This document shows, one piece after another, positions 2,501-50,409 of a DNA stretch of 64,000 nt; within the stretch, counting starts at the first letter, position 1; the number at the start of each line of letters is the position of its first letter. Below the pieces are notes generated by a model that worked only from the letters and a program-made list of their open reading frames with translations, was not told the origin of the DNA and did not search any database. The stretch is taken from the NCBI RefSeq assembly GCF_021028975.2, contig NC_059432.1, positions 22,072,001-22,136,000 on the forward strand. The letters are read 5' to 3'. The position numbers and the translations under genes are program-made. This DNA is from Sphaerodactylus townsendi (Eukaryota).

Positions 2501-3714
2501 AGATGGGAACAATTCAGAAATTACATCACACATTCAAAAATCTCCCCACTGGGATTATATACATTCTCAAGAGCTTGAACAGGCTTGCCTATCCTTTCGC
2601 CCTTTTCTCTTTGGGACTTTTCCTCTTTCTCATTTTCCTTGCTTGGTGTTCCTGTTACTTTGTGGATTTCCCCTCTGTTCTACATGTGTTTTGTGTAAAT
2701 TGGTATTATCTCTCCATTTTAGATGGGGTGGCTGCTGAGAGAACAAGTGCCTTTTGGTAAGGTTGGACCAGCATGAATGAACCAGATCAGTGGATACCTT
2801 CTTCTGAGAAGGAAAGAATGACCAATGAAGCACAAAAGATGGTTTCAGAGGGCCCTATTCTGGGCAATATAAACTTGGGGAGTCCAAGTAGTAGGGAAAG
2901 AAGAGAAGAGTAGAAGTTGGACATAGTCAAATAACTCCATTAAAATATTATATTTGGGCTTGTGCTGGAGCTTGTCTTTTTTAATTACATTCAGTAATTC
3001 TCTGTAGGAATACTATGGCTTTCCCCCTGATTAGCACAAGTCTGTGTGAGGAGAAACTAAATGTAGTGGTTAAATATTCATCTAGTCCCTTACTTTTCCG
3101 AACCATTAGCTCTTTACAGCTGGAAAACACTTCCTTCACTACACTCCATGGATGCATTTTTTTTTCAGTCCAAGCACTTGAGCCTTGGCAGTATGTGGCA
3201 GCAAGAGTTTATTAAAAAACACACAACTTCAGCGCTAATTTAAATGAACCGGAAGCACAGCGATACTTCATCTTAATTTTTTATGCCAAGGGCCCTTGTG
3301 GCTATGCACGAAAAGTTCGCTCAGGCTGAAGTGTGTTTCTCATTCAGCAAGTGATGACAATCATGAAGGAGTGTCCATATGGATTGGAAAGTATACAGGC
3401 TCTTACAGAAGCCAGCATGCACACCTGACTGGAGTGTATCACACATGGATGTAACTGACAGCTACCATAGGCAAAACTTTTCTCACAGCTGAAATGTTCA
3501 AGAAAAAATTCGCCAAGTAGTTTCTATATAATGGCAAAAAAGAATCTCCAGCAATGGTGGGTAGGGTTGGTAAATGAAAAAAAAATTCGGCCCTGGTTTG
3601 GATTCGGGGACCCAGATTCAAGGTCTATCTCGGAGATTGATTTTTTAAGATTTGCGCAGTGACATCCGAGATTCTCGGATGCGTTTTTATTTTTTGCTGG
3701 TTTTTGCATTTTGG

Positions 3715-4029
3715 CCTGCAGGGGGCGCATTTTTAAAGGTATCAGCATGAAAATTTCAGGGTATCTTCATAATACTGTCTGGATTATGTCCCCCAAGTTT
3801 GGTGCAGTTTGGTTCAGGGGGGCCCAACTTATGGACCCCCAAAAAGGTGGCCCATATCACCCATTGTTTCCAATGGGAGCCAATGGAAGATAGGGGCTAT
3901 CTTTGAGGGTCCATAACTTGGGCTCCCCTGCACAAACTGCACCACACTTGGGGTGCATGATCAGGACAGTATTCTGAAGATACCCTGAAATTTCCATGCC
4001 GATACCGTTAAAAATGCGCCCCCTGCAGG
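3715..4029. repeat. Long internal inverted repeat (~130-bp arms) in the hAT element
   Basis: CCTGCAGGGGGCGCATTTTTAA...ATTTCAGGGTATCTTCA...AACTTATGGACCC is mirrored by GGGTCCATAACTT...TGAAGATACCCTGAAAT...TTAAAAATGCGCCCCCTGCAGG. Confidence 0.85.
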
Positions 4030-4098
4030 TACCCCAGGTGGTTTGCATTGAATTTTTTTTCAATTGCTTTCAATTGGGGAATTCCTGGGATGCCTGCA

Positions 4099-5360
4099 GA
4101 GGGTTTGTCTGTCCAGACACCCCCCGGGAGGTCTGTCCGGACACCCCCCGGGAGGTCTGTCCAGACACCCGCCGGAGGTCTGTCCGGACAACCCCCGGGA
4201 GGATTGTCTGGACACCACTGTCCGGACATCCCCCAGGAGGTTTGTCTGGACACCCCCTGGGAGTTTTGTCCCGACACCCCCGGGAGGTTTGTCTGGACAC
4301 CCCCTGGGAGGTTTGTCCGGACACCACTGTCCAGACACCCCCCGGGAGGTCTGTCCGGACACCCCCCAGGAGGTCTGTTCGGACACTCCCCGGGAGGTCT
4401 GTCCGGACACCCCCCAGGAAGTTTGTCCGGACACCCCCGGGAGGTTTGTCCGGACACCACTGTCCGGACACACCCCGGGAGGTTTGTCCAGACACACCCT
4501 GGGAGGTTTGTCCGGACACCCCCCCAAGAGGTCTGTCTGGAACCCCCCCGGGAGGTTTGTCCGGACACCCCCCTGATGGTCTGTTCGGACACCCCCCGGG
4601 AGGTCTGTCTGGACACCCCATGGGAGGTTTGTCCGGACACCCCCCTGATGGTTTGTCTGGACACCAACCACTGTACGGACACCCCGCAGGAGGTCTGTCC
4701 GGACACCCCCCAGATGGTCTGTCCGGACACCCCCCGGATGGTTTGTCCTGACACCCCCGAATGGTTTGTCCCGACACGCCCCGGGAGGTTTGTCCGGACC
4801 CCCCCGGGAGGTTTGTCCAGACACCCCCCAGATGGTTTGTCCGGACACCCCTCGGATGGTTTGTCCAGACACCCCTGGGAGGTCTGTCCGGACACCCCCC
4901 GGGAGGTCTGTCCGGACACCCCCCGGGAGGTCTGTCCGGACACCCCCCGGGAGGTCTGTCCGGGCACCCCCCGGAGGTTTGTCCGGGCACCCCCCGGAGG
5001 TCTGTCCAGACACCCTGGGAGGTCTGTCCGGACACCCCCGGGAGGTCTGTCCGGACACCCCCCGGGAGGTTTGTCTGGACACCCGGAATGTTTGTACGCA
5101 GACCAGGAAGGTTTGTACGGACACCCGGGAGGTTTGTCCAGACACCTGGGAGTTTGGGCAAGATGCCTGGAAGGTTGGGAGGGATGTCTGAAAGTTTGGG
5201 CTGGACTCCTGGGAGGTTGGGTGGGCTACCGGGGCTTTTGGGCTGGATGACTGGGAGGTTCGGCGGTACTCCTGGGAGATTGGCCGGACCACCTAGAAGG
5301 TTGGGCGGGATGGCTGGCAGGTTGGGCAGGACCCCTGGGAGGTTGGGTGGGACCCCAGGC
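4099..5360. repeat. GC-rich minisatellite, ~22-bp unit GGGAGGT(C/T)TGTCCGGACACCCCCC, degenerating after ~5150 into a ~21-bp GGGAGGTTGGGCGGGACCCCT-like unit
   Basis: Directly visible tandem array of several dozen units; each unit contains the palindrome TGTCCGGACA; explains the long repetitive ORFs on both strands. Confidence 0.95.
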
Positions 5361-5415
5361 ACAGGCATGGGGGGCAGGGAATTTTTCCCCCACCCCTTCC
5401 CTCAGACCAACCTCA

Positions 5416-5565
5416 TGTATCACAGAGGGAAGTCTGTTACACACTGTGTCCTCACATCCCTCTTGGATGCACTTCTGAAGATGCCAGCCACAGATGCAGG
5501 CAAAACGTTAGGAACAAGATCTACCAGACCATGGCCACACAGCCCGGAAAACCCACAACAACCAT
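5416..5565 (+). mobile_element. Penelope-like element pseudo-LTR fragment with a degenerate minimal hammerhead ribozyme motif
   Basis: CTGAAGA (5475-5481) - TGCC...GGC stem - AAAACGTTAGGA (GAAA mutated to AAAA); homologous to the palindrome at 49637-49792. Confidence 0.75.
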
Positions 5566-5584
5566 CTGAGGAAAAGATTTCTGA

Positions 5585-5590
5585 TTTATT
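5585..5590 (-). terminator. Putative poly(A) signal of the captured FFAR2-like fragment
   Basis: TTTATT on + (AATAAA on -), about 105 nt downstream of the stop codon at 5694-5696. Confidence 0.45.
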
Positions 5591-5693
5591 GTACAAAAAT
5601 GAATTTTGAACGTTAGGAACCATATTCAAGATTTTTTTTGCGGGGGCACTTAGTTGAGTTACTGGATTTTGAATCAGTTTGTGGACATTGCTT

Positions 5694-6353
5694 TCAATTT
5701 CCCGGTGCTTTGGAGCCAGGGTGCAAACTTTCTACTGATAGTGCTGTGCATTGCGTTTGCTGTAGAATGCTCTTGAGCTCTGATTGCACAGAGTCTATGC
5801 AGGTTGGTCCAAAGAGAAGTTTTTTTGTCTGGGCATCAGCTCCTTGATATCTACTCTGAAGACCTGAACTAAAGAACTGGTCAGCATCTACTCCTTCATC
5901 ATTATTTGTAGGATGTTTAGAGCAGAAGACCACAGTTTGGAGTCTGAGGAACATGGCACCCCAACACTCATTAATGGTCCGTCAGATGGCCTTGGAAGAG
6001 AAGAAGATGACAGGATCAACACAGGTATTAAGTGTGCTGAGGAGGAGTGCTTCCATTCTCCAAGGTGGACTCTGGTTCTTTATAAAGCCCACCATGTGGG
6101 AAACATTGTACAGAGCAAAGCAGATGATGAAATTGAGCAAAGTGGCCACAGCTAGGCCCACCGCCCGTCGCTTCTTGCTGGGTTTGACATTGGAGAGGGA
6201 GCTCAGGAGGTGGATGACCTTCACATAGCAGAAGAGGGTGATAATGAAAGGGAAACAGAAAAAGAACAGGCAGAGTTCCAATCGGAGAGAGTAGATGACA
6301 CGGAGCTGTTGGGAAGAGAAGTTATCATAGCAATGGGAGGTATTAGGAGAATA
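5694..6353 (-). pseudogene. FFAR2: 5'-truncated free fatty acid receptor 2-like GPCR fragment (ECL2, TM5-TM7, C-tail)
   Basis: Reads YSPNTSHCYDNFSSQQLRVIYSLRLELCLFFFCFPFIITLFCY...KKRRAVGLAVATLLNFIICFALYNVSHMVGF...LNTCVDPVIFFSSKAI*RTINECW...; matches FFAR2-family motifs CYxNF, RLEL, RRAVGLAVxTLLNF, YNVSH, DP. Premature TGA at 5982-5984 (probably from CGA), same frame continues to a stop at 5694. TM1-TM4 are absent. Paralog identity within the FFAR cluster is not certain. Confidence 0.88.
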
Positions 6354-6440
6354 CTATCTGTACCCGGCCACGCGTTGCTGTGGCTCAGTCTGGTGAAGTG
6401 GAAAGGAAAGAGAAAGTGGACGCTTGTTAAATTTTTAGTG

Positions 6441-6960
6441 TCACAATGCATGTTGGTATACAGTATCTTGTGTTGTTCCATTGTTTTGTTGTGAAGTAGC
6501 TGTTGCAGTTGGCAAACAGTGGAAGTTCTGATGGTGGTAGAAATCACACAGTGTGCATGCAGTGCATCATTGGCATCACCGATGGAATTAATTGGAAGGA
6601 GTTCATGGTGACTATCTGGATAGGGGAGCAGGGAGGCGAGTATATGGTAAATTTGTCCTGTCACTGTGAAAGTTTGGAGGAATTGAGTTGTGTCAATTTC
6701 CTTGGGGGAATGAGTGCATTTGGAAGCATGAGTTGTATTTCCTGGTGTTACCTAGGAATGGATTTGATTTGGCGGTGGTTTAAAGGCTTGTGGTGGTGTG
6801 GTTGTGCCTGTTGAGGCATTGTCATTGTTGTAGTGCATAACACATTCCTTTGGTGTTCCAGTGAATTTCAGAGCCGTGTAATAAGGACACACTTCAGTCA
6901 TAGAAGTGAGTGATAACATGCTGGCTGTTTGCCATGTGGTAGTTTGTGTAGGTATGTGTG
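6441..6960 (-). pseudogene. Helitron RepHel remnant: N-terminal region fused to the last codons of the helicase
   Basis: Frameshifted translation MTEVCPYYTALKF (ATG 6899-6901), RKYNSCFQM (6717-6743), TFTVTGQIYHILASLLPYPD...QLQQLLH, then NNGTTQDTVYQHAL* (6441-6485). These resemble RepHel motifs C-x2-C-x-ALKF, KYNSCFQMTSFG, GQIYH-x-GSLLP and the C-terminal T-x-N-x-VY. Confidence 0.8.
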
Positions 6961-8031
6961 ATGTGTGGAATGAATGGGGTTTAGCAGGTGAATGTCAGAG
7001 GACGGCATAGGAGCCTTCTGAGGGAGGCCAGTGTGGTTGTACTTCCCATAGCAGAAGGAGGCAAAGGAGGGTTTGTGGGAGGGCATGAGTGTGTATAGGG
7101 GTGTGTTGTGGGTAGTAGGGTGTTGTAGCAGTGAGTTGAGGATGTCGAAGAGGCCGTCATGGGTACATGGGTGTTGGTTGGTACAGTTAGAGAAGTGTAG
7201 GTGAAGTGTGTGGTAAGTGGTTGGTGTTGTGTTAGAAGCTGTGCATAGCCCCTTAGGGCAGTGGTGGGTAACCATGGTGCAGAAGCGTTAGGGGTGGCGT
7301 TTGGAGTGTAGGCTGGCGTGCAAGGCTGGTGTGCGCCCTGAGCCTGTGGCTGGGAGTAAGAGTGGTGGATGGGAAGGGGGGGTTGTGTCTGAGGAAATCC
7401 TCATTGGCTTGCGTGTCATACAGTGTAAGTGCTGCACAGGTGGTTCACCAGATGTACCCCTGAGGAAGGCACACCTGCATTCTAAACAGAAACCTCAGTA
7501 ATCAGGTGGAGTTGGCATGGTGGAATGTAACGATAAAAGAGTGGGTTTTGTCTTGCAATTTGGGCAGTCGGTCTTGAGAAGGCTGGCCAACAGTGCTGTA
7601 GAGCAAGGAAGAGGAGTATATGCAGCTTAGGTATGTGAATTTGGAGAGAAGGGATGGTAGATTTGGGGTAGAGTTGAAATCCTCATAGCATAAATGTCAG
7701 TAAGCAGGATGAATTGCCAAATTGGTCCGTTCTGAAAAATAAGTGGGGTTTGTCTTGCAATTTGGGCAGCTGGTGTAGAGAAGGCTGGCCAACAGTGTTT
7801 GAAACCACAAAGAGGAGTATGAACATATGAGGTAGAGCGCAATGGGAGAGAGCAGGTGGTGGAGTAGTTGCAGAGTTAGTTGTTTGCAGTGGGAGAGCAG
7901 AGATGGTTGAGTTGGTGGAGAATTGTGTGTGAGGGACAGACTGTTTGTTGTTGGTAGTTATAAGCGAGTAAGTAAAGGCAGACAGCTGTGGAGAATATGG
8001 GTGAGGAATTGTGTATGTGATGGTTGACTGT

Positions 8032-8173
8032 GGCTCATTCCGCACATGCAGAATAATGCACTTTCAAACTGCTTTCAGAGCTCTTTGAAGCTGTCTCGGA
8101 ATGGCAAAATCCACTTGCAAACAGTTGTGAAAGTGGTTTGAAAAGCATTGTGTTGCGTGTGCGGAATGGGGCC
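8032..8173. mobile_element. Short Harbinger-type MITE nested in the Helitron
   Basis: TIR GGCTCATTCCGCACA / TGTGCGGAATGGGGCC; 3-bp TSD TGT (8029-8031 and 8174-8176). Confidence 0.8.
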
Positions 8174-8176
8174 TGT

Positions 8177-9460
8177 GAGAGGGGGCAGAGTGAAGTGGGT
8201 GTGGAGGAGATGGGTGCAGGAAATGAAGTAGTGAAGGCAGAGAGATATGGAGAATATCTGAGAGGCAGTTATGTTTGAATGTGAGGGACAGCACACTGAA
8301 GTGTAGAGAGGAAAAGGTGGATGAGTGTGGGACAGGGCCGCAGTGAAATGTGTGAGGATGGGAATGTGTGTAGAGAGTATTTGTTGTGTGTGGGAAGTAA
8401 TGGATTGAGAATTGAGATTGAAGGTAGCGATTTGCAAAAGAAAGAGAGGTGAGAGGCAGACAGTTGTTACTCTGTGGGAGGCTGAAGAGCGCAAAGGTGT
8501 TAAGCTGAGAGAGGGAAAGTTGGTCGCTAGGGGAGCAGGAGGCAGAGGAGTCCTTGTGAGAAGGTGTGAGTCGAGGTGTGGAGTTTTGGAGGATGCAGGA
8601 GAAAGAGAAATAGAGTGTGGGGGGAGGGGGGGAGGGAGAAGTGTGTGACTGGTGGGAATGTGATGGAGGGGCAGAGTGAAAGTGTGTGAGGGAGGTGGGA
8701 AATGTGTACATATTTGTATCTTGTGTATGTGGTAGTAGTAATGGAGGTGAGACAGCAATTGAAGAGTTAAAAGTGCACAGGAAATAATTTAAAGTAGAAA
8801 GGCAGAGAGAGATATAGGAATGAATATGTGTGAGAGCAGTGATGTTTTGAATGTGAAGGGAGAGGCAGACTGAAGTGTTGAGGAGGGAAAAGGTGGATGG
8901 AGAGTGTAATGGGACAGGGCAGAGTGAAAGGTGTGAGGATGGGGGGGGGGGGAACGATGTGTGAGGAAGTATTTGTTGTGTGTAGGAAGAGGATAATGGA
9001 TGAGATTGAGAATTAGAAGGTAACAGTGCAAGAAAAGAAAAAGTGAAGGCAGAACAGCTATGGAGAGAATTGTGTATGTGATGTTTGAATGTGTGGGAGG
9101 GCAGAGTGAACTGTGTATGGGAGGGTTGGACACAGAAAAGTGGAGAGGCACTCACCACAACTGTGTAATGTGTGAAAAGGGGAGAACCCCCCCCTCACGT
9201 GTGAAATGAGAAGCGTGTGAAGTGTGAGTGGGGCAGTATATGGGTTGCTTTGGTGAAGGAGCCGTGAATGGCCGGAGCTGCAGCCCTCAGAGGCACCCGG
9301 CTGTGGGAGCTGAAGTGAGGAAATGAGGGCAGCCGAGGTGGCTGAGAGAAGAGGGAAAGGATTGGTTGCTGGGGGCGGGAGGCCCGAGGAGTCAGCTTGA
9401 AGAATGTGAGTCTGCAGGTTTGGAAGAGCAGCAGGGAGAAAAAAAGAGAGATGTGGGGGA
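8177..9460. repeat. Degenerate G/A/T-rich internal duplications within the Helitron
   Basis: Recurring blocks GGGCAGAGTGAA (~8183, 8668, 8916, 9099), GAAAAGGTGGATG (~8312, 8887), GTATTTGTTGTGTGT (~8377, 8969). Confidence 0.7.
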
Positions 9461-9461
9461 G

Positions 9462-9722
9462 AGGGGATTGCCTGGAGTTAAGGAGGAGCGGCTGCGTTAA
9501 AATGGGAGACTTGTGTGGCCGTTTTGGCTGGGAATGGCTGAAGCTGGAGGGAGAGGGAGGGGGATTGCCTGAGTTAAGGAGGAGCGGACTGCGTTAAAAT
9601 GAGAGGCTTGTAGTAGCCAGCCGTTTGTGGCCGTTTAAGAAACTGGGGGAATCACGAAGCTGGAGGAGGGGAGGGATTGCCTGAGTTTAGGAGGAAGGCG
9701 GACTGCGTTAAAATGAGAGAGC
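9462..9722. repeat. Three-copy ~100-bp tandem repeat within the Helitron
   Basis: GGGATTGCCT(G)GAGTT(A/T)AGGAGGA..CGG(A)CTGCGTTAAAATG occurs three times. Confidence 0.8.
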
Positions 9723-11844
9723 TTATTGTGGCAGACATTAGCGCTGGGGAGAATGTGCATCTGGAGGAGGTGTGTGGGTGGGCTGGCTGGCTGGTAGCAC
9801 CAATTGCTTGAGAACCCGGTGCTTGAAGGCTGACGTAGCGAAGGTGGTTTTAGCGCATTTGGGCCGCGCACACTGGCCGAGGATATGTCAATGCAGATGG
9901 AGGCGTTATAAGGAGCTGGTTGATTTCAGCGGCGAATGGGTGATTGTGCTGACTTAGCGAGGGAGTTGCATGTAGAAACGCTGCTACGCGGACAGCCTAG
10001 AGTAGAAGCGTTGGGAGAGGCTGCAGAAGAAGTGTTGCTGGGACTGTAGAGGAGGTTTTCCTGGCACAGGAGGAGTGTCAGAGTTTCCGAAGATGCTTTG
10101 AACACACTCGCTTGGCTGAGGAGTGTGTATGGGAAGTTTCAGAGGAATTGGCCCAGTAGTTATTGAGGTACCCTGTCATCAACACATACACGGTTAGCTT
10201 TTTATATATATAGATGGAATGCTCGTCCGAATCTGTCCGAATCAGTGCAGATTCGGTCAAAATCTGGATTCGGACTGTCCGAATCTCCAACCCTAATGGT
10301 GGGAGTACTCTTTGGGAATAATGTTCAAGTACCCATAAGAGCTTGGAGAAGATGACCCTTCGCAGTTGAGGGGAGAGGCAGGTGTATGATGAGATGAAAT
10401 GACAGGTTGAGTTTGGGAAGGGAACAGAAGCAGAAAGATGTGTGTTGGTTAAAGCATCTTGGGATATAGCATCTTTCTCCCTCTGTGGATCTTAGTAATA
10501 CTTGATTCAGTACAAGCAGAGCACAGGTGGGGGACCCACAGCCACTCCCACGGGGCAACAGAATCTGTAGGAGTGGCTGTTGGTCCCCACCTGTGCTCTG
10601 CTTGTATTGAATCAAGTATTACTAAGACACTCTGTCTCCAGTGCTCATTTTCCCAAAGAGAACCAACCCAGGAGGCACTGACTCTGGACCTTTTCACATC
10701 TTGAAGAAGTTTGGTGGGCACAACAGAATAGTTAGCTCCTCACTGAACAGAATGTGTGTGCTCTGCCACATTTTTAATTGCATTCTTTCTCAATAGAAAT
10801 TAACAGCTGGTCAGGTTTGTATTTCACTGTCAATTTTTTCCCCATTGTACTAGTGCAGTTTGCACAAACTATAGATCTGTCAAGACCTGTTCTGTTCTTG
10901 CCATGCTTCCCGGATGGGATATGGTGTCTGCAATCCTGGATTGTTTTTTTTAACTGTTCTGTTTCTTAGATTCACTTTTGCTTTCCACTTCTTTGCATTG
11001 CTATACTAACTGTGGGCTTCAAGGATGGAGGGGTTAGATTGCTCAGCAGTGGGAGGGGCCCTACAGAGCTGTACATCTTGGGGATTTGGGTGCCAAAAGG
11101 CAGTCTTGACTTTGTCAAAGATTCTTACCATGTTGCATTCCTGGGACCTGTCATTCAATAAAAAGGGTTTCATTATTAAATGAGTCTGATTATTGGACAG
11201 CCTAAGGCAACAACAAGATAGCATATTTATTTAAAACATCCAGGTCCCACAGATTCAGTAAAACATTTTCAAGGCAGCTTGCATCATTACTAGAACAATA
11301 AAACCAATAAAAAAATCTAACAGTTAAAACCAGCAGCATAAAATTAGCAAGGATTATTAAAATAAACAGCAGCAATAAAATAAATATTTAAAAATACAGC
11401 AGTGGCAAGTTTATCCTCTCTTTTGTCCTACTTTTACCTTATTTTGATATTTATAAAAAATGTTTTGCAGTTATATTGCTCTTGTTTTTTTGCTTAACAT
11501 TTGAAATCCTATGAGAAATTTATGAGGTGAACTTTGCTGGTAGCCAGATGTCTTTGCATCTGCCAGAGGACTGACATGTAAAATAGTGGATTTAATGGAT
11601 TAAAGGATGCCCTGGTGTTGCTATTCTAGTCTTCTTGGTCAGATTATATACCTCAATCAGTTATCATAATTGCTCAAGGCAACTGAATTATTATGCCGTT
11701 GCTAAGTAACCTTGGTCCAGGATTCTGGATAATTCCTCATCTTTCCTCATAATACGTTAATATGAACCCTTACATTAAGTATGGTTCATATGTTGGCTTG
11801 CATTTATCTGCAGGTTCAGAACAAGTCAAATGGACGAAACTGAT

Positions 11845-16595: not shown

Positions 16596-16784
16596 TGCCC
16601 TTCAAGTTATGGGCCCAGCTGTACCCAGCTGTGCATTGTGTAGCCAAGTGAAACACAATCTGACCAGACTAACAAAAGCCAGCCAGATACAGGTTTTAAC
16701 TGAGAGAAATATAAAAGCTGCAATAAGACTGAATTTTAAAAGACAATCATAATGTTTCTTGTAGAGGTCAAAACAAAGGGAACT

Positions 16785-18545
16785 ATGCAACCAATTCCCA
16801 TACTATCTACAAGTAATTATCAACAGTGGAGAAAAAGAGTAATTGTGTCTTTAAAGGCAGAACAATGTTATAAATGTATTGAAAGTCCTAAGCCTGGCCA
16901 AAGTGAAGAAGAAATTAGAAAGTGGGAATTACAGGATGCAGTTGCTACTAAAATAATTTATGCATGTTTAGATGATACTCAGTTAATATATGTATATGAA
17001 TGTGAAACTGCAAAAGAACTGTTAAAGAGAATAGAAAATACATTTTCTCAGAGTAGTTACAAAACACAGAATAGATTGATTAAAGAACTAGTGAAAATTA
17101 GATTAGAAGAAAGAGAAACCTGTGAAAATATATTTTATTTTTATTTATTTATAATTAGTTTTCTATACTGCCCCTCCCCCGAAGGGCTCTGGGCAGTACA
17201 CAACACAAATACAACAACAACAGATGGAGCACACAAATAACAGATTATAAAATAAACAATATAAGCTCCATTAACCATAACACTAACCCATTTACTATTG
17301 ACAGTATTTGATCAACTAAAGTTAACAGGACTAGAATTTAATGAACAACAGAAAATTGACTTTTTAATGGGAACACTTGGTGAAAGATTTGATGCATTTG
17401 GCTTAGTCTTAGAGGGAAAAGAACGTTTAACTCTCAATGAAGCTATTTCAAAACTCAGTCAAGAATGTGAGATGATTGAGAGATCAGATCTCTGTAAGAG
17501 ATTGAATCAAAAGGATTCAAATTATACTGTAAAACAATACAGTACAGGGAGAAATAAATTTAGAAGTCAAGCACCAAGATGCCTTAATTGTGGAAAATAT
17601 TGTCATATTGCTAGAAACTGTAAAGAGAAATGATTTAGTAATCAATATGATAAATATGTAAAAAGAAAGATAGAGATAAATAATGATTCAAAACGAAGTC
17701 AGAGCAAACATAAGAATTTCAGAGAGCATTCACAAAATGCCCTATAGTATGAGAAGGGGCTTACAATAAGAAAAAAATAGTTTGAATTCTGAAAAATGGA
17801 TTATTGATAGCGGATGCACAAGTCATAGGAGTAACTCAGAAAAAATCTTTAAAACTATTAACAAAAGTGTAAATGGAACACTCCAGACAGCAAATGGTGA
17901 AAGCATGAAAATACAAGGATCTGGGAGTGGATGTCTAAAGTGTAATTTACCACAGGAGACTGTTGAGCATAATGTTAGTAATGTGTTGTATCTACCAGAA
18001 TTAGATTGTAATACGCTAAGCTCTAGATAAGAAAGGGTTTGCTGTACACTTTGAAAAAGGTAAATGTACTGTGTCTAAGAACATTGTACTGTATGCACAA
18101 GCATTTGAAAACAATGGTCTGTACAAACTAAGTATATCAGAACCATATGTAAACAAAGCTCAAATGTGCACAGAGAAAAATACTTTGGCACAGAAGACTT
18201 GGCCATAGGAATACAAAAGCAATATATGAATTACAGAGCAAGGGCTTTGCTACAGGAATCGAAATAAATCTACATGACCAGGATAAAACAACAAAATGCA
18301 TACACTGTGTTACAATGAAAGGAGTTTGACCTTTTAAACCAAGAACAGAAAAGAGGAACACTAGAGCACTGGACATTATACATACTGATATCTGTGGACT
18401 TTTTAATGTACCATCACTGGGAGGAAGCAGATATGCCCTAATATTTGTTGATGATTTTTCGAGGTACTGTGTGACGTACGTACTGAAGGAAAAGGTCCAG
18501 TTGAATGAGATGCTTAAGAAGTATATTGCCATGGTGGACGTCGGT
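16785..18545 (+). pseudogene. Copia gag-pol pseudogene (gag, zinc knuckle, protease, integrase N-terminal half)
   Basis: NYQQWRKRV...ETAKELLKRIENTF (copia gag), CLNCGKYCHIARNC (CCHC knuckle), WIIDSGCTSH (protease), LWHRRLGH (pre-integrase), IIHTDICG...SRYALIFVDDFSRY (integrase core); several stops and frameshifts. Confidence 0.9.
17131..17290 (-). mobile_element. Short LINE 3' fragment inserted in copia gag
   Basis: T-rich tail followed by CTGCCCCTCCCCCGAAGGGCTCTGGGCAG; gag homology stops before it and resumes after ~17295. Confidence 0.6.
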
Positions 18546-18785
18546 TGACAATCTTTCTCAAGGAAAAGTATATCTCTACTCGAACAGACCACAGGTTTAC
18601 ATGGACGCCGGTCTCCAAGGTTGGGGTGCCACACTGGATTGTCATGTAGTTCACGGGAAGTGGTCCCCGTCGCTCAGCCGACTACCGATCAATCTGCTGG
18701 AAACTCACACCATCCATCTGGCCCTGCTGCTCTTCAAGGACATAATCAAATACTGCCATGTTCTTGTATGAACAGACAATGTGTC
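18546..18785 (+). mobile_element. DIRS1-like retrotransposon RNase H fragment
   Basis: VYMDAGLQGWGA...GKWS...LPINLLE...IHLALLLF...HVLV*TDN matches the DIRS RNase H pattern TDAS-x2-GWGA / IN-x-LEL / TDN. Confidence 0.8.
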
Positions 18786-34413: not shown

Positions 34414-35714
34414 CCTATATATACTTGTGTATAAGTTGACCCGAATATAAGTCAAGGCACCTAATTTTGCCATAAAAAACTGGGAAAACTTATTGACTTG
34501 AGTATAAGTCTAGGGTGGGAAATGCAGCAGCTACTGGTAAATTTCAAAAATAAAAATAGAGACCAATAAAATTACATTAATTGAGGCATCAGTAGGTTAA
34601 ATGTTTTTCAATATTTATTTCAAAGAAAAACAGTAAACTAGCTCTGTAGGTGGAAAGGAGGGTCAACAAGAACAGTATGGTATCAACAATATAACTTTAA
34701 AAGTACAAAAACCTTAGCTCAATCAGCAACCAAGCTAAAGCACAAAAGTTAAAATCCTTCAAAACTGGATTCCTCGTCATCATCTGTATGTCCAAATGTA
34801 ACCCAACTTAGATTTTAAGAGGGATATTATCAGAAATGGAAAAGGAGTTCAAGTCTTTGACAGTGTGATCCCACCTTGTGACCCTTAACATTCATCCGAC
34901 TTACAGCAAAAGAAACTTTAAATCTGTTTTCTGTTTCATAACCAATAGTGTGCAGTATAACAACTGGCTAACTTTTTGTGCTCTGTCATCAGCAAACGGT
35001 TATAACTGTACTGGAGATTGTATCATTACACTGAGGTCGCCATTTTTCTGGTATATTGCTGCTGTTTTAATTATGCCATTAAAGGTTTATATATATAAAC
35101 TTTTTGTGCTCTGTCATCAGCAAACGGTTATAACTGTACTGGAGATTGTATCATTACACTGAGGTCGCCATTTTTCTGGTATATTGCTGCTGTTTTAATT
35201 ATGCCATTAAAGGTTTATATATATAACAATGAAATATGGCAAACCAATACAGAAACAATAATCAACATATAATAGTTCTGGCCTGCTATGCAAAACAGAC
35301 TAGCAGGCCTCTTAACAATTCTGAGGAAAATAATATTTATATAGCACCCATTATAACATTTTATAACAGGAAACCAAAATATAAACTAATAGTCAATCAA
35401 TGTAAACACAATATACCCTTCTCAACAATTAATACAAACATTCTCATACCTGAAATATGCAAATACAGTTCACAACAACTGAACTCAGGGGAACTGAATT
35501 CTGAGGAAATGGAGCCTTTTCTTCCTTCTATGGAAAATCTGAGCTCTTTAGCTTCCCCTAACGGACCCTGGGTTACACAAACAGAGCTTAGCTATAGTAT
35601 AGCACCAGTTACTGTATTTTCTTGAGTATAAGTCAACCCGAATGTAAGTGGAGGGGGGCTTTTTCAGCATTTAAAATGTGCTGAAAAAGTCAACTTATAC
35701 ACAAATATATATGG
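34414..35714. mobile_element. Tc1/mariner-superfamily non-autonomous element
   Basis: TIR CCTATATATACTTGTGTATAAGTTGAC / GTCAACTTATACACAAATATATATGG flanked by TA on both sides; internal TATAAGTC repeats near both ends. Confidence 0.8.
34971..35226. repeat. Exact 128-bp tandem duplication
   Basis: 34971-35098 is identical to 35099-35226. Confidence 0.95.
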
Positions 35715-41221: not shown

Positions 41222-42182
41222 CTAGCGGGGCCCAGCCACACGTTGCTGTGGCTTATTGTGGTGAAATGGGAAAGGAACAGTAGCAGCAAATCAATTGCAG
41301 AGGCCAGCAGTAAGTGTTCATGCAAACACGCAGTCTGATACTATGCGATGTCATTGATGTGTGTGCCTGCATTGGGGGGGGGAATGGAAAGGCACCTCTC
41401 CCACACATCTAGGCTGGCTAGTCATGATCCTTTACCTGGGAGTAAGCTTGGTTGGTGGCAATGGGTGTCTCTTCTAAGGAAACCCTCTGAGGGGCGCGAC
41501 GCAGCCATTCAAAGTATGTCACGGTTGCTATACCGAGCTTACTCCTGAGTAATGTGTGCCTGGTTTTCTTAACTGTAACTGCAGTATTCAGAGAATCTAG
41601 GGTGCCTAGCCCCTCCCTCCCGTCCCTTGCATGTCGCCCCTCACTCTCTTCCCTCCCTCACTTCTCTTCCCTTGCATGCCACCCCCTCCCTCCCTTCCCT
41701 TTCCCTCCGCTAGGGTGGGTGGGTCATATCAAGATGCTGGGCCCCCTGCCTCCCCTCCCTTGCATGCCACCCCTCACTCTCTCCCCTCTCTCCCTTCTCT
41801 TCCCTTGCATGCCACCCCTCCCGCTCCCTCCCTTCCCTCTCCCTCGTGTGTATGTGTGTGTATGTGTTTCACTTCCACTCAAGTTACTGCCTATGTACTG
41901 TTTTCACTGCTCATATTTGGCCATTTGAGTGAGCATTCTAAGCAGCACAAACATTCTAAGGGTGACAGTTACACACAGGCAGCTGCATGTCCTTCACCAT
42001 GGAGCGCCAGGAAAAAGGCGTTTTACCTGGGCCAGGTATGAAATTTCAGGTATGTGAACATCTAAAAACACTCTTGCCTGGCTGACTATAGTGGCTAGGA
42101 ATTTTCAGAGGAATTGGCCCAGCAGTTACTGAGTTACACTATCATCAACAAAAACACTGTTAGCTTTTTATATATATATAGA
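41222..42182 (-). mobile_element. Non-autonomous Helitron, same family as 6354-10214
   Basis: Minus strand 5' TCTATATATATATAAAAAGC ... GCCACAGCAACGTGTGGC hairpin ... CTAG 3', inserted between A and T; ~75 bp at the 5' end align with 10138-10214. Confidence 0.88.
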
Positions 42183-46230: not shown

Positions 46231-46411
46231 GATAACAATATAGCAAGACAAGACCTGCATTGTATAGTGCAGATAATAGTGGGTACTTTGAGCCAGCATT
46301 TCTGGATCTTCTTCTACATCAGTCATGTAGCTACAACAGGGAGGGGGGATGTGTGTGTGCTGTGCCCCCACATCCTTCCCCTCTTGCCCCACCCTGCCAG
46401 GCCTGGCAGCC

Positions 46412-46686
46412 AGAGGCGGATCTACAAGGGGACCAGGGTGTGTGTGTGCATGTAGCACCGGGCGTGCTCCTGGGGGGACAGCAAAAATTTTAGGTGGTTT
46501 TTTTGGGTATTTTTTAGTGTTTTTTCAGTTTTTGGCCTGCAGGGGGTGGGGCAGGGGAGAGCTGCTTTTATAAGCACTGAGGCTGGGGACAAGGCTTGGG
46601 GAGTGTGGCCATGCCCCCAGGGGCGGGTGGAGGCATGGCCACACCCCCACAACCTACCCCATAAAAAATCTATACCTACGTCCCTG
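46412..46686. mobile_element. hAT-like MITE
   Basis: CAGAGGCGGATCTA ... TACCTACGTCCCTG termini; shares TTTTGGCCTGCAGGGGG with the hAT element at ~3710. Confidence 0.5.
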
Positions 46687-47536
46687 GCTCACCTAAATAC
46701 CTTGATGACAATAAAAGGATATTTACCTGACTGGAAAGATAACAAATCTGGTGCTAAGCAGGCACAGTACAGAGAGCATTCCATACCTGGAGCATCATCT
46801 TTGAAAAGGACCTGCTCCGAGCTGCTATACACTTCTCCTCTGAACAGGTGGAAGGCAGAGCAGGGCTTTTGATCTCAGAAGACAGGTGTGATCCTATGAA
46901 AGATGGTCCTTCAGATATCCCAGTTCCAAGTGGATTAAATTAGGCCTGGAACAAATAGAAAACCACTAAAGTTGTCTAATATCAGTGAGATGCATTCTGT
47001 TTATGCGAACCTGTATTGTATATTTTAAAAATCCCACCACCCACTAACAGACTTCTGAGGAATGAATCACCCATGGTTCTCCTAGTATTACTTAACTATT
47101 ATATTTTATGTATTCAGTCTGTTTATTTTTTATCTCTTATTTTTTCTCCCATACTTAACTCTTGTTTGTCATTAGGTATGGAATAGACACACACCAAGTG
47201 ATAATAATAACTATTTTTTAAAAAAATATTTAAAAGGAATTAAGTATTAAAAGTATAAAGACAATATGATGGCTTATCTGGATACTTGTATAGCTTCTTG
47301 TTGATTTACTCAAAGTTCCTGTAAGAAAGGGAGGTGGTAATCACTGCACTACTTTAATCCCCTAATTGAATTTAATTACGTAGTCAAGTTCTTGCAGTCT
47401 AGCTTCACCCAATGCTTGGTTGTTTAACTTTGAAGTCTTCTTTCTGTTGGGCTGTTCCCAGGCTATGGTTGCCATCTTTTGGTTCTCCCAGAGTTACCAC
47501 TTATCTCTAGATTACAGAGGTCACCTGGAGAGTAGG

Positions 47537-49636: not shown

Positions 49637-49792
49637 TCTTGTTCCTGACGTTTCACCTGCGTCTGTGGCTGGCATCTTCTGAGGTGTATCACAGAGGGAA
49701 GTGTAACTGGACACAGTGTGTAACAGACTTCCCTCTGTGATACACCTCTGAAGATGTCAGTCACAGATGCAGGTGAAATGTTAGGAACAAGA
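49637..49792. mobile_element. Penelope-like inverted pseudo-LTR palindrome with two degenerate hammerhead ribozyme motifs
   Basis: ~66-bp arms around a ~24-nt loop; + strand CTGAAGA (49748-49754)...GAAA (49775-49778); - strand CAGAAGA...GAAACGTC. Confidence 0.8.
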
Positions 49793-50409
49793 TCCATGAT
49801 AACTTCTTAACAACCTGCTGGTGCAACCAATATAAAAATTACATGAAACTGTTGTTCTGAGTTAAGGTGAGTAATTCTGTGTTGAAAATGAAGCTCCAGG
49901 GCTGGAAGTTTTCTAAAAAGTCTTATTTTTAAATCAGAAAAATTTAAGCTTGCCAGTGTTATGACATCAGCACTCAGCTTCAGATGCTAACTAGTATGCC
50001 ACAGAGTGTGTAAACCTCCTCTATTGGCACATTAGAATAGTATAAAACCTTTGTGTATGCCCAAAAGGTGGGACTGTTTGAAGAAAATATTCTGCTACAC
50101 TCAATGTGTTATTCACTGAATTCACTTCATAATTCTGAATACTACTGGTAGTGTTTGTTAATGAAGGCTATTTAGTAGTATTGTGGTTTACCACTATTTA
50201 TTCACTTTGCAAAAGAACCTGAGAGAACCCTGCCCCCCCAATACTAATTACTCTGATCCACTGCATTCTGTGACAAATAATGAAAATGCAGGGATTTAAA
50301 AGGGGCTTTAAAATCTGGTTTTATTGTATGCTGTACAAAAGGTAACGGTTAAGTGCATTCTGTTTCTTAAAATGTAGAAGTTTGTTTCAAAGGAGCAGAA
50401 GATGTAGTT

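What the first reader, a model, noticed from the sequence alone, without database searches (positions are those of the whole stretch)
3554..10303. 6.7-kb nested mobile unit: an intact-ended hAT element enclosing a Helitron, a host gene fragment, a Penelope ribozyme remnant and a Harbinger MITE
Seen: a perfect 8-bp TSD (ATGGTGGG) and matching TIRs 6.7 kb apart, with subterminal CCGAAT motifs retained at both ends. Inference: the cis-requirements for hAT mobilisation appear intact, so the whole package could have moved as a Pack-TIR-like unit. That would be a two-step relay in which a rolling-circle element captures a gene and a cut-and-paste element disperses it. This window alone cannot show whether the cargo arrived before or after the hAT inserted here.
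Basis: partly seen in the sequence, partly recalled or inferred. Interest (0 to 1): 0.75.

Follow-up and report, generated by a model that had tools for sequence, protein, structure and literature searches.

The report
Gecko transposon carrying broken receptor gene
A cut-and-paste transposon in a dwarf gecko encloses the broken back half of a fatty-acid receptor gene, likely copied in during DNA break repair; a rolling-circle element splits that gene piece and so did not capture it, which makes this a new but ordinary case of a known kind of gene-carrying transposon.

Summary
The structure is real; the proposed relay is not. A non-autonomous hAT (3562-10295; TSD ATGGTGGG, 9-bp TIR, CCGAA motifs) encloses a Penelope remnant, the 3' half of a gecko FFAR2-like gene and a 3,861-bp non-autonomous Helitron holding a Harbinger-like MITE. 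The gene piece lies outside the Helitron: codons S-I-P stand just before its 5' TC and Y-S-P just after its 3' end, and a Sphaerodactylus townsendi gene model reads ..ESIPYSP.. unbroken. The Helitron therefore inserted at an A|T site inside the gene and did not capture it. That gene model is a second locus joining a longer, Helitron-free FFAR2 piece to the same hAT body. Depth ratios in four runs give roughly 2 copies of the gene piece (about 4 in one relative) against about 10 for the Helitron in one run. Dispersal of the 6.7-kb package is not shown. Best reading: a Pack-hAT formed by template-switch repair, with dead cargo (premature stop). Close precedents are animal Pack-TIRs and the composite hobo_AC hATs of Anolis. 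Open: whether the second locus is the parent gene or another mobile copy. New member of a known kind.

The parts
3554..3561 (.). Left 8-bp target-site duplication ATGGTGGG
3562..3714 (+). hAT left end: 9-bp TIR TAGGGTTGG (3562-3570), TTCGG motifs at 3586 and 3603
3715..4029 (.). 315-bp palindromic module of the hAT body; no TSD; its left flank is shared with another repeat at 46508-46546, so probably not a separate MITE
4107..5353 (.). hAT body: 24-bp minisatellite (about 4107-5146) grading into a 21-bp array (5119-5353); 5141-5344 matches an exon of P0006
5354..5415 (.). Unassigned 62 bp; the hAT-body/cargo junction lies here or at its edge (inferred)
5416..5564 (+). Penelope/Poseidon-type remnant: inverted tail plus minimal hammerhead (about 5475-5512) with CUGANGA kept and GAAA changed to AAAA; very high-copy family
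5565..5693 (-). DNA 3' of the FFAR2-like frame; its junction with the Penelope remnant is spanned by contigs in X1, X2 and X5
   Evidence: table 8
5694..6353 (-). 3' half of an FFAR2-like gene (second extracellular loop, TM5-TM7, tail; 219 codons) with a premature TGA at 5982-5984
6354..10214 (-). Non-autonomous Helitron, 3,861 bp: 5' TC after A, 3' hairpin and ATAG (CTAG in the second copy) before T, no TSD, no Pfam match in six frames
8032..8173 (.). 142-bp palindromic Harbinger-like MITE inside the Helitron; 3-bp TSD TGT; very high-copy family
10215..10224 (-). 9-10 nt of FFAR2 (codons S-I-P) left on the far side of the Helitron
   Evidence: against P0006
10225..10295 (-). hAT right end, 71 bp: five CCGAA/TTCGG motifs and TIR 10287-10295
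   Evidence: contig 16 of X2 spans 10270-11160
10296..10303 (.). Right 8-bp target-site duplication ATGGTGGG

Best explanation
This is a non-autonomous hAT element that encloses about 950 bp of host DNA (the 3' half of an FFAR2-like gene, its 3' flank and an older Penelope remnant), likely copied in by template switching during repair of a break in the element, and a Helitron interrupts that gene piece at an A|T site, likely by a later insertion. Shown: ends, TSD, gene identity, the split of the reading frame by the Helitron, a premature stop, and a second locus joining a longer Helitron-free FFAR2 piece to the same hAT body. Inferred: the second locus is the parental gene with a related hAT body beside it; a broken hAT invaded that homologous body, copied on through Penelope and FFAR2, and rejoined its own right end 71 bp from the tip. 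The cargo has no start, lacks TM1-TM4 and would not make a receptor. The unit would still be a transposase substrate, but there is no sign that it spread with the Helitron aboard.
For: Frame split S-I-P | Helitron | Y-S-P against ..NESIPYSPNT in P0006; chance of those three codons 2.7e-4. P0006 is the only protein with E<=1e-8 among 8000 candidates for the hAT-body frame, and the window has a GT and an AG at the positions where P0006 joins FFAR2 to that frame. The rest of P0006 (before residue 66, after 307) has no match in the window, so it is another locus or allele. Contig 10 of X2 aligns to 6116-6353 and runs on for 208 unlike letters. Gene piece/flank depth: X2 2.0-2.5, X1 1.9-2.4, X8 about 2 (noisy), so two copies, parent plus this one, suffice in 3 of 4 runs. 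Against P0006 the hAT body differs more (at least 9 of 183 and 14 of 171 nt) than FFAR2 does (6 of 387; Fisher p 0.025 and 0.0003), as expected if body and cargo came from different copies. Gap filling is the main route for animal Pack-TIRs (PMC8277862 sections 7-8); DNA uptake and inter-element recombination are described for lizard hobo_AC hATs (PMC3014272 section 8).
Against: P0006 is a predicted protein; its DNA, flanks and intron lengths were not seen. Run X5 has the gene piece at 3.5-4.3 times flank (6.8 against its lowest flank contig), which two copies do not explain. The tool warns that contig depth is no copy number. The higher hAT-body divergence may be tandem-repeat turnover: P0006 has an extra repeat block and one of the two comparisons crosses a shifted unit. 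No intact Sphaerodactylus orthologue appears among 16 and 14 hits and P0006 starts at an inner Met, so it may be a mobile copy rather than the parent. The Helitron sits only 10 bp from the cargo edge, which this order leaves as a coincidence. Microhomology at the junctions could not be tested.
Confidence: 0.55

Rival explanations
1. A small mobile Pack-hAT family: an earlier hAT captured most or all of the single-exon FFAR2-like gene and moved as a unit; P0006 is a longer member, and the window copy is an internal-deletion derivative that gained a Helitron, the deletion perhaps arising next to the Helitron's 5' end.
For: Gene piece with its Penelope junction at about 4 times flank depth in X5. 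FFAR2 and hAT body are joined at two loci. The right end is only 71 bp, as after an internal deletion, and ends 10 bp from the Helitron. Structured multicopy composite hATs are known in Anolis.
Against: About 2 copies in 3 of 4 runs leave little room for a native gene plus two mobile copies. The hAT body is more diverged from P0006 than FFAR2 is. No second TSD was seen. Extra copies in X5 could be tandem duplicates in the FFAR cluster, which already holds several paralogs in geckos.
Confidence: 0.28
2. The Helitron first inserted into the parental FFAR2-like gene; the hAT then took up Penelope, the gene piece, the whole Helitron and 10 bp beyond in one 4.8-kb event, or carried all 6.7 kb to this site in one jump. 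The Helitron is a passenger, not the captor.
For: It would tie the cargo edge to the Helitron's 5' end, 10 bp away. In hobo_AC, nested TEs were judged to arrive with captured genomic DNA. Window differs from X2 contigs by 1.5% in FFAR2 and 1.1% in the Helitron, too alike to order the events.
Against: P0006 and contig 10 of X2 are Helitron-free; in X1, X2 and X5 the contig pieces covering 6312-6315 stop aligning at 6353. It needs a further Helitron-bearing parental allele that was not seen, though these contigs cannot show absence.
Confidence: 0.12
3. One reading: the Helitron captured the gene piece (inside it or by 3' read-through) and the hAT then dispersed the package.
For: The gene piece lies directly past the Helitron's 3' end, whose CTAG reads ATAG here; read-through capture is a shown Helitron mechanism (PMC4778049).
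Against: FFAR2 codons lie on both sides of the Helitron, including before its 5' TC. Four CTRR-T sites lie further downstream; none is near the cargo edge at about 5416 and none has a hairpin as stable as the true end (-5.4 at best against -5.8 kcal/mol). Helitron interior and gene piece have different depths. P0006 joins FFAR2 to the hAT body with no Helitron at this site.
Confidence: 0.02
4. No capture: the native gene decayed here and two unrelated hAT ends happen to flank it.
For: Only 3.5 kb of left flank is in the window, so the FFAR cluster could be close on that side.
Against: Identical 8-bp TSD with matching TIRs. No other FFAR sequence, including the gene's 5' half, in the 53 kb upstream or elsewhere in the window. 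A longer copy exists elsewhere.
Confidence: 0.03

Closest known systems
Animal Pack-TIRs (Tan et al. 2021, PMC8277862): 370 cases in 100 genomes, 208 with hATs, 4 multicopy
   Same: Host DNA between the two ends of one hAT, flanked by a TSD; likely gap-filling origin.
   Different: The likely parent is linked to TE sequence, which that pipeline excluded; the cargo was later split by a Helitron; the words lizard and anole do not occur in its main text (supplements not read).
hobo_AC and hobo-N1..15_AC hATs of Anolis carolinensis (Novick et al., PMC3014272)
   Same: Lizard hATs with 8-bp TSD and TIR TAGGCTTG.. (7 of the first 8 bases as here), 1.3-3.4 kb non-autonomous bodies that take up genomic DNA with Penelope and other TE pieces and recombine between copies.
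   Different: TIR here is 9 bp, not 11; the section read names TE fragments, not a host coding exon, as cargo; no sequence comparison beyond the TIR was possible.
Maize Ds2 and Ds-l4 elements with gene fragments (Du et al. 2011, PMC3260210)
   Same: Non-autonomous hATs with 8-bp TSD, subterminal motifs, filler and gene pieces, up to 7.3 kb compound.
   Different: Plant; different TIR and motif.
Gene-capturing Helitrons (Helibat/Helraiser, PMC4778049)
   Same: Termini and A|T target of the nested element.
   Different: This Helitron holds no recognised gene cargo and interrupts the gene instead.
Chicken FFAR2 expansion (Meslin et al. 2015, PMC4453067)
   Same: Extra FFAR2-like copies in a sauropsid.
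   Different: About 23 clustered, expressed genes there; here a broken half gene inside a transposon.

Membership tests
hAT, non-autonomous | 8-bp TSD | tested here: met
hAT, non-autonomous | Short TIR starting YARNG (PMC3014272) | tested here: met
   TAGGG, 9-bp perfect TIR; shorter than the 11-16 bp typical in that table
hAT, non-autonomous | Subterminal repeated motifs at both ends | tested here: met
   5 in 71 bp right, 2 in 100 bp left, against 0.53 per kb
hAT, non-autonomous | Ends belong to a dispersed family | tested here: met
hAT, non-autonomous | Autonomous partner encoding a hAT transposase with these ends | not testable with these tools
   No genome; no Pfam match in 12 frames of the element. 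Assignment rests on ends only.
Pack-TIR (Tan et al. 2021) | Both ends of one TIR element around 100-5000 bp of internal sequence | tested here: met
   948 bp without the Helitron, about 4.8 kb with it
Pack-TIR (Tan et al. 2021) | Internal sequence at least 90% identical to a unique parental non-TE copy | tested here: inconclusive
   98.5% to X2 contigs and 97% to P0006, but the parent locus was not located
Pack-TIR (Tan et al. 2021) | Parent free of flanking TE (their filter against segmental duplication) | tested here: inconclusive
   P0006 links FFAR2 to the same hAT body; distance unknown. It would probably fail this filter, which the paper says drops TE-linked cases.
Multicopy Pack-TIR | Same chimeric structure at several loci with different TSDs | not testable with these tools
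   Depth hints at about 4 copies in X5 only; no second TSD seen
Helitron, non-autonomous | 5' TC after A, 3' CTAG before T, hairpin about 10 nt from the 3' end, no TSD | tested here: met
   3' end reads ATAG here, CTAG in the copy at 41222-42182
Helitron, non-autonomous | Independent copies | tested here: met
   Second copy with the same ends in the window; interior at 9-10 times flank depth in X2
Gene-capturing Helitron | Host DNA lies between the 5' TC and the 3' terminus, with none before the TC | tested here: not met
   FFAR2 codons on both outer sides; no later terminator near the cargo edge
Penelope-type minimal hammerhead | CUGANGA and GAAA core around helix II | tested here: not met
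   CUGANGA kept, GAAA reads AAAA; copy at 49748 keeps GAAA; no Rfam hammerhead among 27 weak matches. Remnant; core layout from PMC4209133 passages and recall.
PIF/Harbinger MITE (8032-8173) | Short TIRs and 3-bp TTA/TAA TSD (PMC3014272) | tested here: inconclusive
   3-bp TSD is TGT; the family's loose-end consensus in X8 has TAA before the TIR, agreement 0.44; fold z -10; no transposase link

The most novel reading that the evidence does not exclude
A Sphaerodactylus hAT subfamily captured most or all of a single-exon FFAR2-like receptor gene and has moved it repeatedly (about 4 copies in one species), a multicopy Pack-hAT with receptor coding cargo in an amniote; the window holds one deleted, Helitron-hit member. 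Some copies could be whole and expressed.
Probability: 0.2. Interest if true: 0.55.

Novelty: new member of a known kind. Interest (0 to 1): 0.27.

Why it matters
As it stands it is a clear, datable case of coding-sequence capture by a hAT in a gecko, and a warning that a gene piece beside a Helitron need not be Helitron cargo. If the parent has a related hAT body beside it, the case shows capture guided by homology between two family members, a route that the published animal survey filtered out. If the unit is multicopy with different TSDs it would join only four multicopy Pack-TIRs in that survey's reference genomes and offer a cut-and-paste route to receptor gene expansion. The window copy itself is unlikely to have a protein function.

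Tried and rejected
No whole genome is held, so no search for other junction copies, empty sites or an autonomous hAT. Rfam over 3000-11000: 27 matches, all below gathering score, no hammerhead. Pfam over 12 read-through frames of the hAT body and Helitron: 0 families, so no RepHel or transposase remnant. Pfam over 52 + 203 flanking stop-to-stop frames of 62 aa or more: 4 hits, all copia-type LTR domains at 16.7-18.6 kb, no host gene; shorter exons were not tested, so the genomic context is unknown. The 3715-4029 palindrome as a MITE: rejected, no TSD. A later Helitron terminator near 5400: not found. An empty-hAT joint from about 5400 to 10225 is not among the 15 joints shown; 1394 were hidden, so this says nothing. 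The left end and minisatellite were left out of the one read-laying run. Right-end pattern in metagenome contigs: 0. Search of 50% representatives: 102 hits, P0006 best, nothing else close. Earlier findings: none by place, sequence or words. Paper searches: Pack-TIR terms 2 papers; Helitron+gecko+gene capture 3 reviews, listing only; Helitron+CTAG+hairpin+Anolis 0; gecko+hAT+captured+gene fragment+non-autonomous 0; S. townsendi+TEs 7, listing only. None of these listings names this locus; the library lacks most subscription papers, and Repbase/Dfam could not be searched.
Full report
OBSERVATION. The ends are as described. ATGGTGGG stands at 3554-3561 and 10296-10303, and a perfect 9-bp TIR TAGGGTTGG lies just inside each. 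Such a pair is rare: 0.1 per shuffled window (10 shuffles), with one other real hit that is an artefact of a palindrome. CCGAA/TTCGG motifs are dense at both ends. An 8-bp TSD and a YARNG start are the hAT marks given for lizard elements (PMC3014272 section 8). No transposase was found, so the hAT call rests on the ends.

ORGANISM. The gene piece matches FFAR2 (PDB E 1.3e-35; Pfam 7tm_1). Its best relatives are gecko FFAR2-like proteins. In a tree of 18 rows it pairs with P0006 from Sphaerodactylus townsendi (100/100; 97% over 112 columns), and the pair joins one Euleptes paralog (98/96). The window is therefore from Sphaerodactylus; the species was not determined.

ANATOMY, left to right. hAT left end; a 315-bp palindrome without TSD; 24-bp and 21-bp tandem arrays to 5353; a Penelope-type remnant at 5416-5564 whose hammerhead core has lost GAAA; FFAR2 3' flank and coding piece, 5565-6353 on the minus strand, with a TGA at codon 124 of 220; a Helitron at 6354-10214; 10 bp; a 71-bp hAT right end. 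The Helitron's limits are fixed by a second, 961-bp copy at 41222-42182 that shares both termini. A 142-bp palindromic MITE with a 3-bp TSD sits inside the Helitron.

THE DECISIVE JUNCTION. On the minus strand the nine bases before the Helitron's 5' TC read S-I-P and the bases after its 3' end read Y-S-P-N-T-S-H-C. P0006 reads ..NESIPYSPNTSHC.. without a break. The chance of those three codons is 2.7e-4. The Helitron thus sits between an A and a T inside the gene, the standard target (PMC4778049 passages). A Helitron begins at its TC and cannot carry bases 5' of it, so neither internal capture nor 3' read-through explains the arrangement. The mutated 3' end (ATAG) is the one feature that favours read-through, but no later terminator lies near the cargo edge.

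A SECOND LOCUS. P0006 is a chimeric gene model: 65 more FFAR2 residues upstream, the piece seen here, then a stretch matching the reverse frame of the hAT body at 5141-5344, then sequence absent from the window. It is the only hit to that frame among 8000 candidates. The window has GT and AG at the matching join positions. FFAR2 and this hAT body are thus linked at a second locus or allele without the Helitron. Only the protein was seen.

SEQUENCING RUNS. Five of 8 listed runs hold part of 5400-10400, none half of it. Four were laid on 5250-11200 (3 studies). X2 has a contig over TIR, TSD and flank (10270-11160, no substitutions, depth 20.9), so it shares the insertion; it and X1 are very close to the window and may not be independent of its source. 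X5 differs by 1.7% in the flank. Depth relative to flank: gene piece 2.0-2.5 in X2, 1.9-2.4 in X1, about 2 in X8 raw reads (about 1.4-fold coverage, noisy), 3.5-4.3 in X5 (6.8 against its lowest flank contig); Helitron interior 9-10 in X2, 1.3-2.8 in X1, 1.7-5.8 in X5, under 1 in X8. The tool warns that summed contig depth is no copy number; I used single contigs where shown and treat the ratios as rough. In X2 a contig follows FFAR2 to 6353 and runs on 208 unlike letters. In X1 and X5 the aligned pieces also stop at 6353; either they run on unlike or the graph branches there, and both mean that a Helitron-free copy exists. These contigs cannot show that the Helitron junction is absent. The Penelope/FFAR2 junction is spanned in X1, X2 and X5, so Penelope was there before the duplication. 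At 5984 the stop codon is G in X2, X5 and 2 of 2 X8 reads; in X1, 7.6 of 48.6 depth is not G. The window differs from X2's contigs by 12 of 795 bases in FFAR2 and 11 of 1025 in the Helitron: both events are young and cannot be ordered by divergence.

MECHANISM. Shown: the hAT ends enclose host DNA; the Helitron interrupts that DNA; a longer Helitron-free version exists next to the same hAT body. That the gene was acquired without the Helitron's help I put at about 0.95. Inferred, 0.55: repair of a break in this hAT, whose body is rich in tandem and inverted repeats, used a related body beside the parental gene as template, copied through Penelope into FFAR2 and returned to its own right end. 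Two copies in three runs and the greater divergence of the hAT body (at least 4.9% and 8.2%) than of FFAR2 (1.6%) against P0006 fit this; repeat turnover could give the same gap. Rival, 0.28: a small mobile family of which this is a deletion derivative; X5's depth, the short right end and the lack of an intact Sphaerodactylus orthologue among the hits favour it. Rival, 0.12: the Helitron was already in the parent and rode along. The 10-bp distance between Helitron and cargo edge is unexplained under the best reading. Whether the cargo arrived before or after the hAT reached this site remains open.

COMPARISON. It works like a Pack-TIR. Tan et al. found 370 in 100 animals, 208 with hATs, mostly single-copy and made by gap filling, 4 multicopy; their pipeline dropped parents linked to TEs (PMC8277862: abstract, sections 7, 8, 9, 14 and passages; supplements not read, and they may list lizard cases). 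Formal membership is incomplete because the parent was not located. In Anolis, hobo_AC hATs with TIR TAGGCTTG take up genomic DNA with Penelope and other TE pieces and recombine between copies (PMC3014272: passages and section 8), so a nested composite of this type is expected in a lizard. Maize Ds elements with gene fragments are the plant precedent (PMC3260210 passages). For the hammerhead I saw passages of PMC4209133 and PMC11167929; naming the remnant Penelope/Poseidon from its sequence is partly recalled. For chicken FFAR2 I saw the abstract and outline; for PMC12001565 two passages, not informative. Searches showed no paper on this locus.

VERDICT. Observation confirmed, relay rejected, Pack-hAT supported, dispersal unproven. 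New member of a known kind; interest 0.27. The bolder case, a multicopy hAT moving a receptor gene in geckos, has a probability of about 0.2 and would merit 0.55.

Noticed in passing
window 41222-42182 (-): Second, 961-bp non-autonomous Helitron with the same termini as the nested one but an unrelated interior; intact CTAG.
   Followed up: partly
window about 16700-18600 (+): Copia-type LTR retrotransposon remnant: Pfam gag_2, Pol_BBD and rve matches in separate broken frames.
   Followed up: no
window 49637-49794: Second Penelope-type insertion as a long palindrome, with the hammerhead GAAA kept.
   Followed up: partly
window 5560-5564 joined to 8031-8038 in runs X2 and X5: 7-19 contigs per joint place the Penelope 3' end directly against the start of the MITE family elsewhere in the genome; chance between two very abundant repeats or a target preference.
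   Followed up: no
P0017 and P0006: The Sphaerodactylus pair shares a long branch (0.22 against 0.053 for Euleptes), and no intact Sphaerodactylus orthologue came up: this FFAR2 paralog may have been decaying or evolving fast before the capture.
   Followed up: partly
window 34970-35226: Exact 129-bp tandem duplication; recent event or assembly artefact.
   Followed up: no
window 10490-10627: Short hairpin element, 43-bp arms 98% complementary, 190 bp right of the TSD.
   Followed up: no
window about 5607-5622: A dozen bases that repeat part of the Penelope remnant (5505-5516); contigs of X1, X2 and X5 over this region are 11-15 bases shorter net, so possibly a private templated insertion.
   Followed up: no
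window 6400-10000: Strong G-over-C skew (0.44-0.57) along the Helitron interior, with internal direct repeats such as 7487-7619/7689-7820 and 8226-8460/8792-9053.
   Followed up: no
window 46400-46690: Another short repeat shares the motif that flanks the 3715 palindrome (46508-46546), suggesting a module common to several gecko elements.
   Followed up: partly
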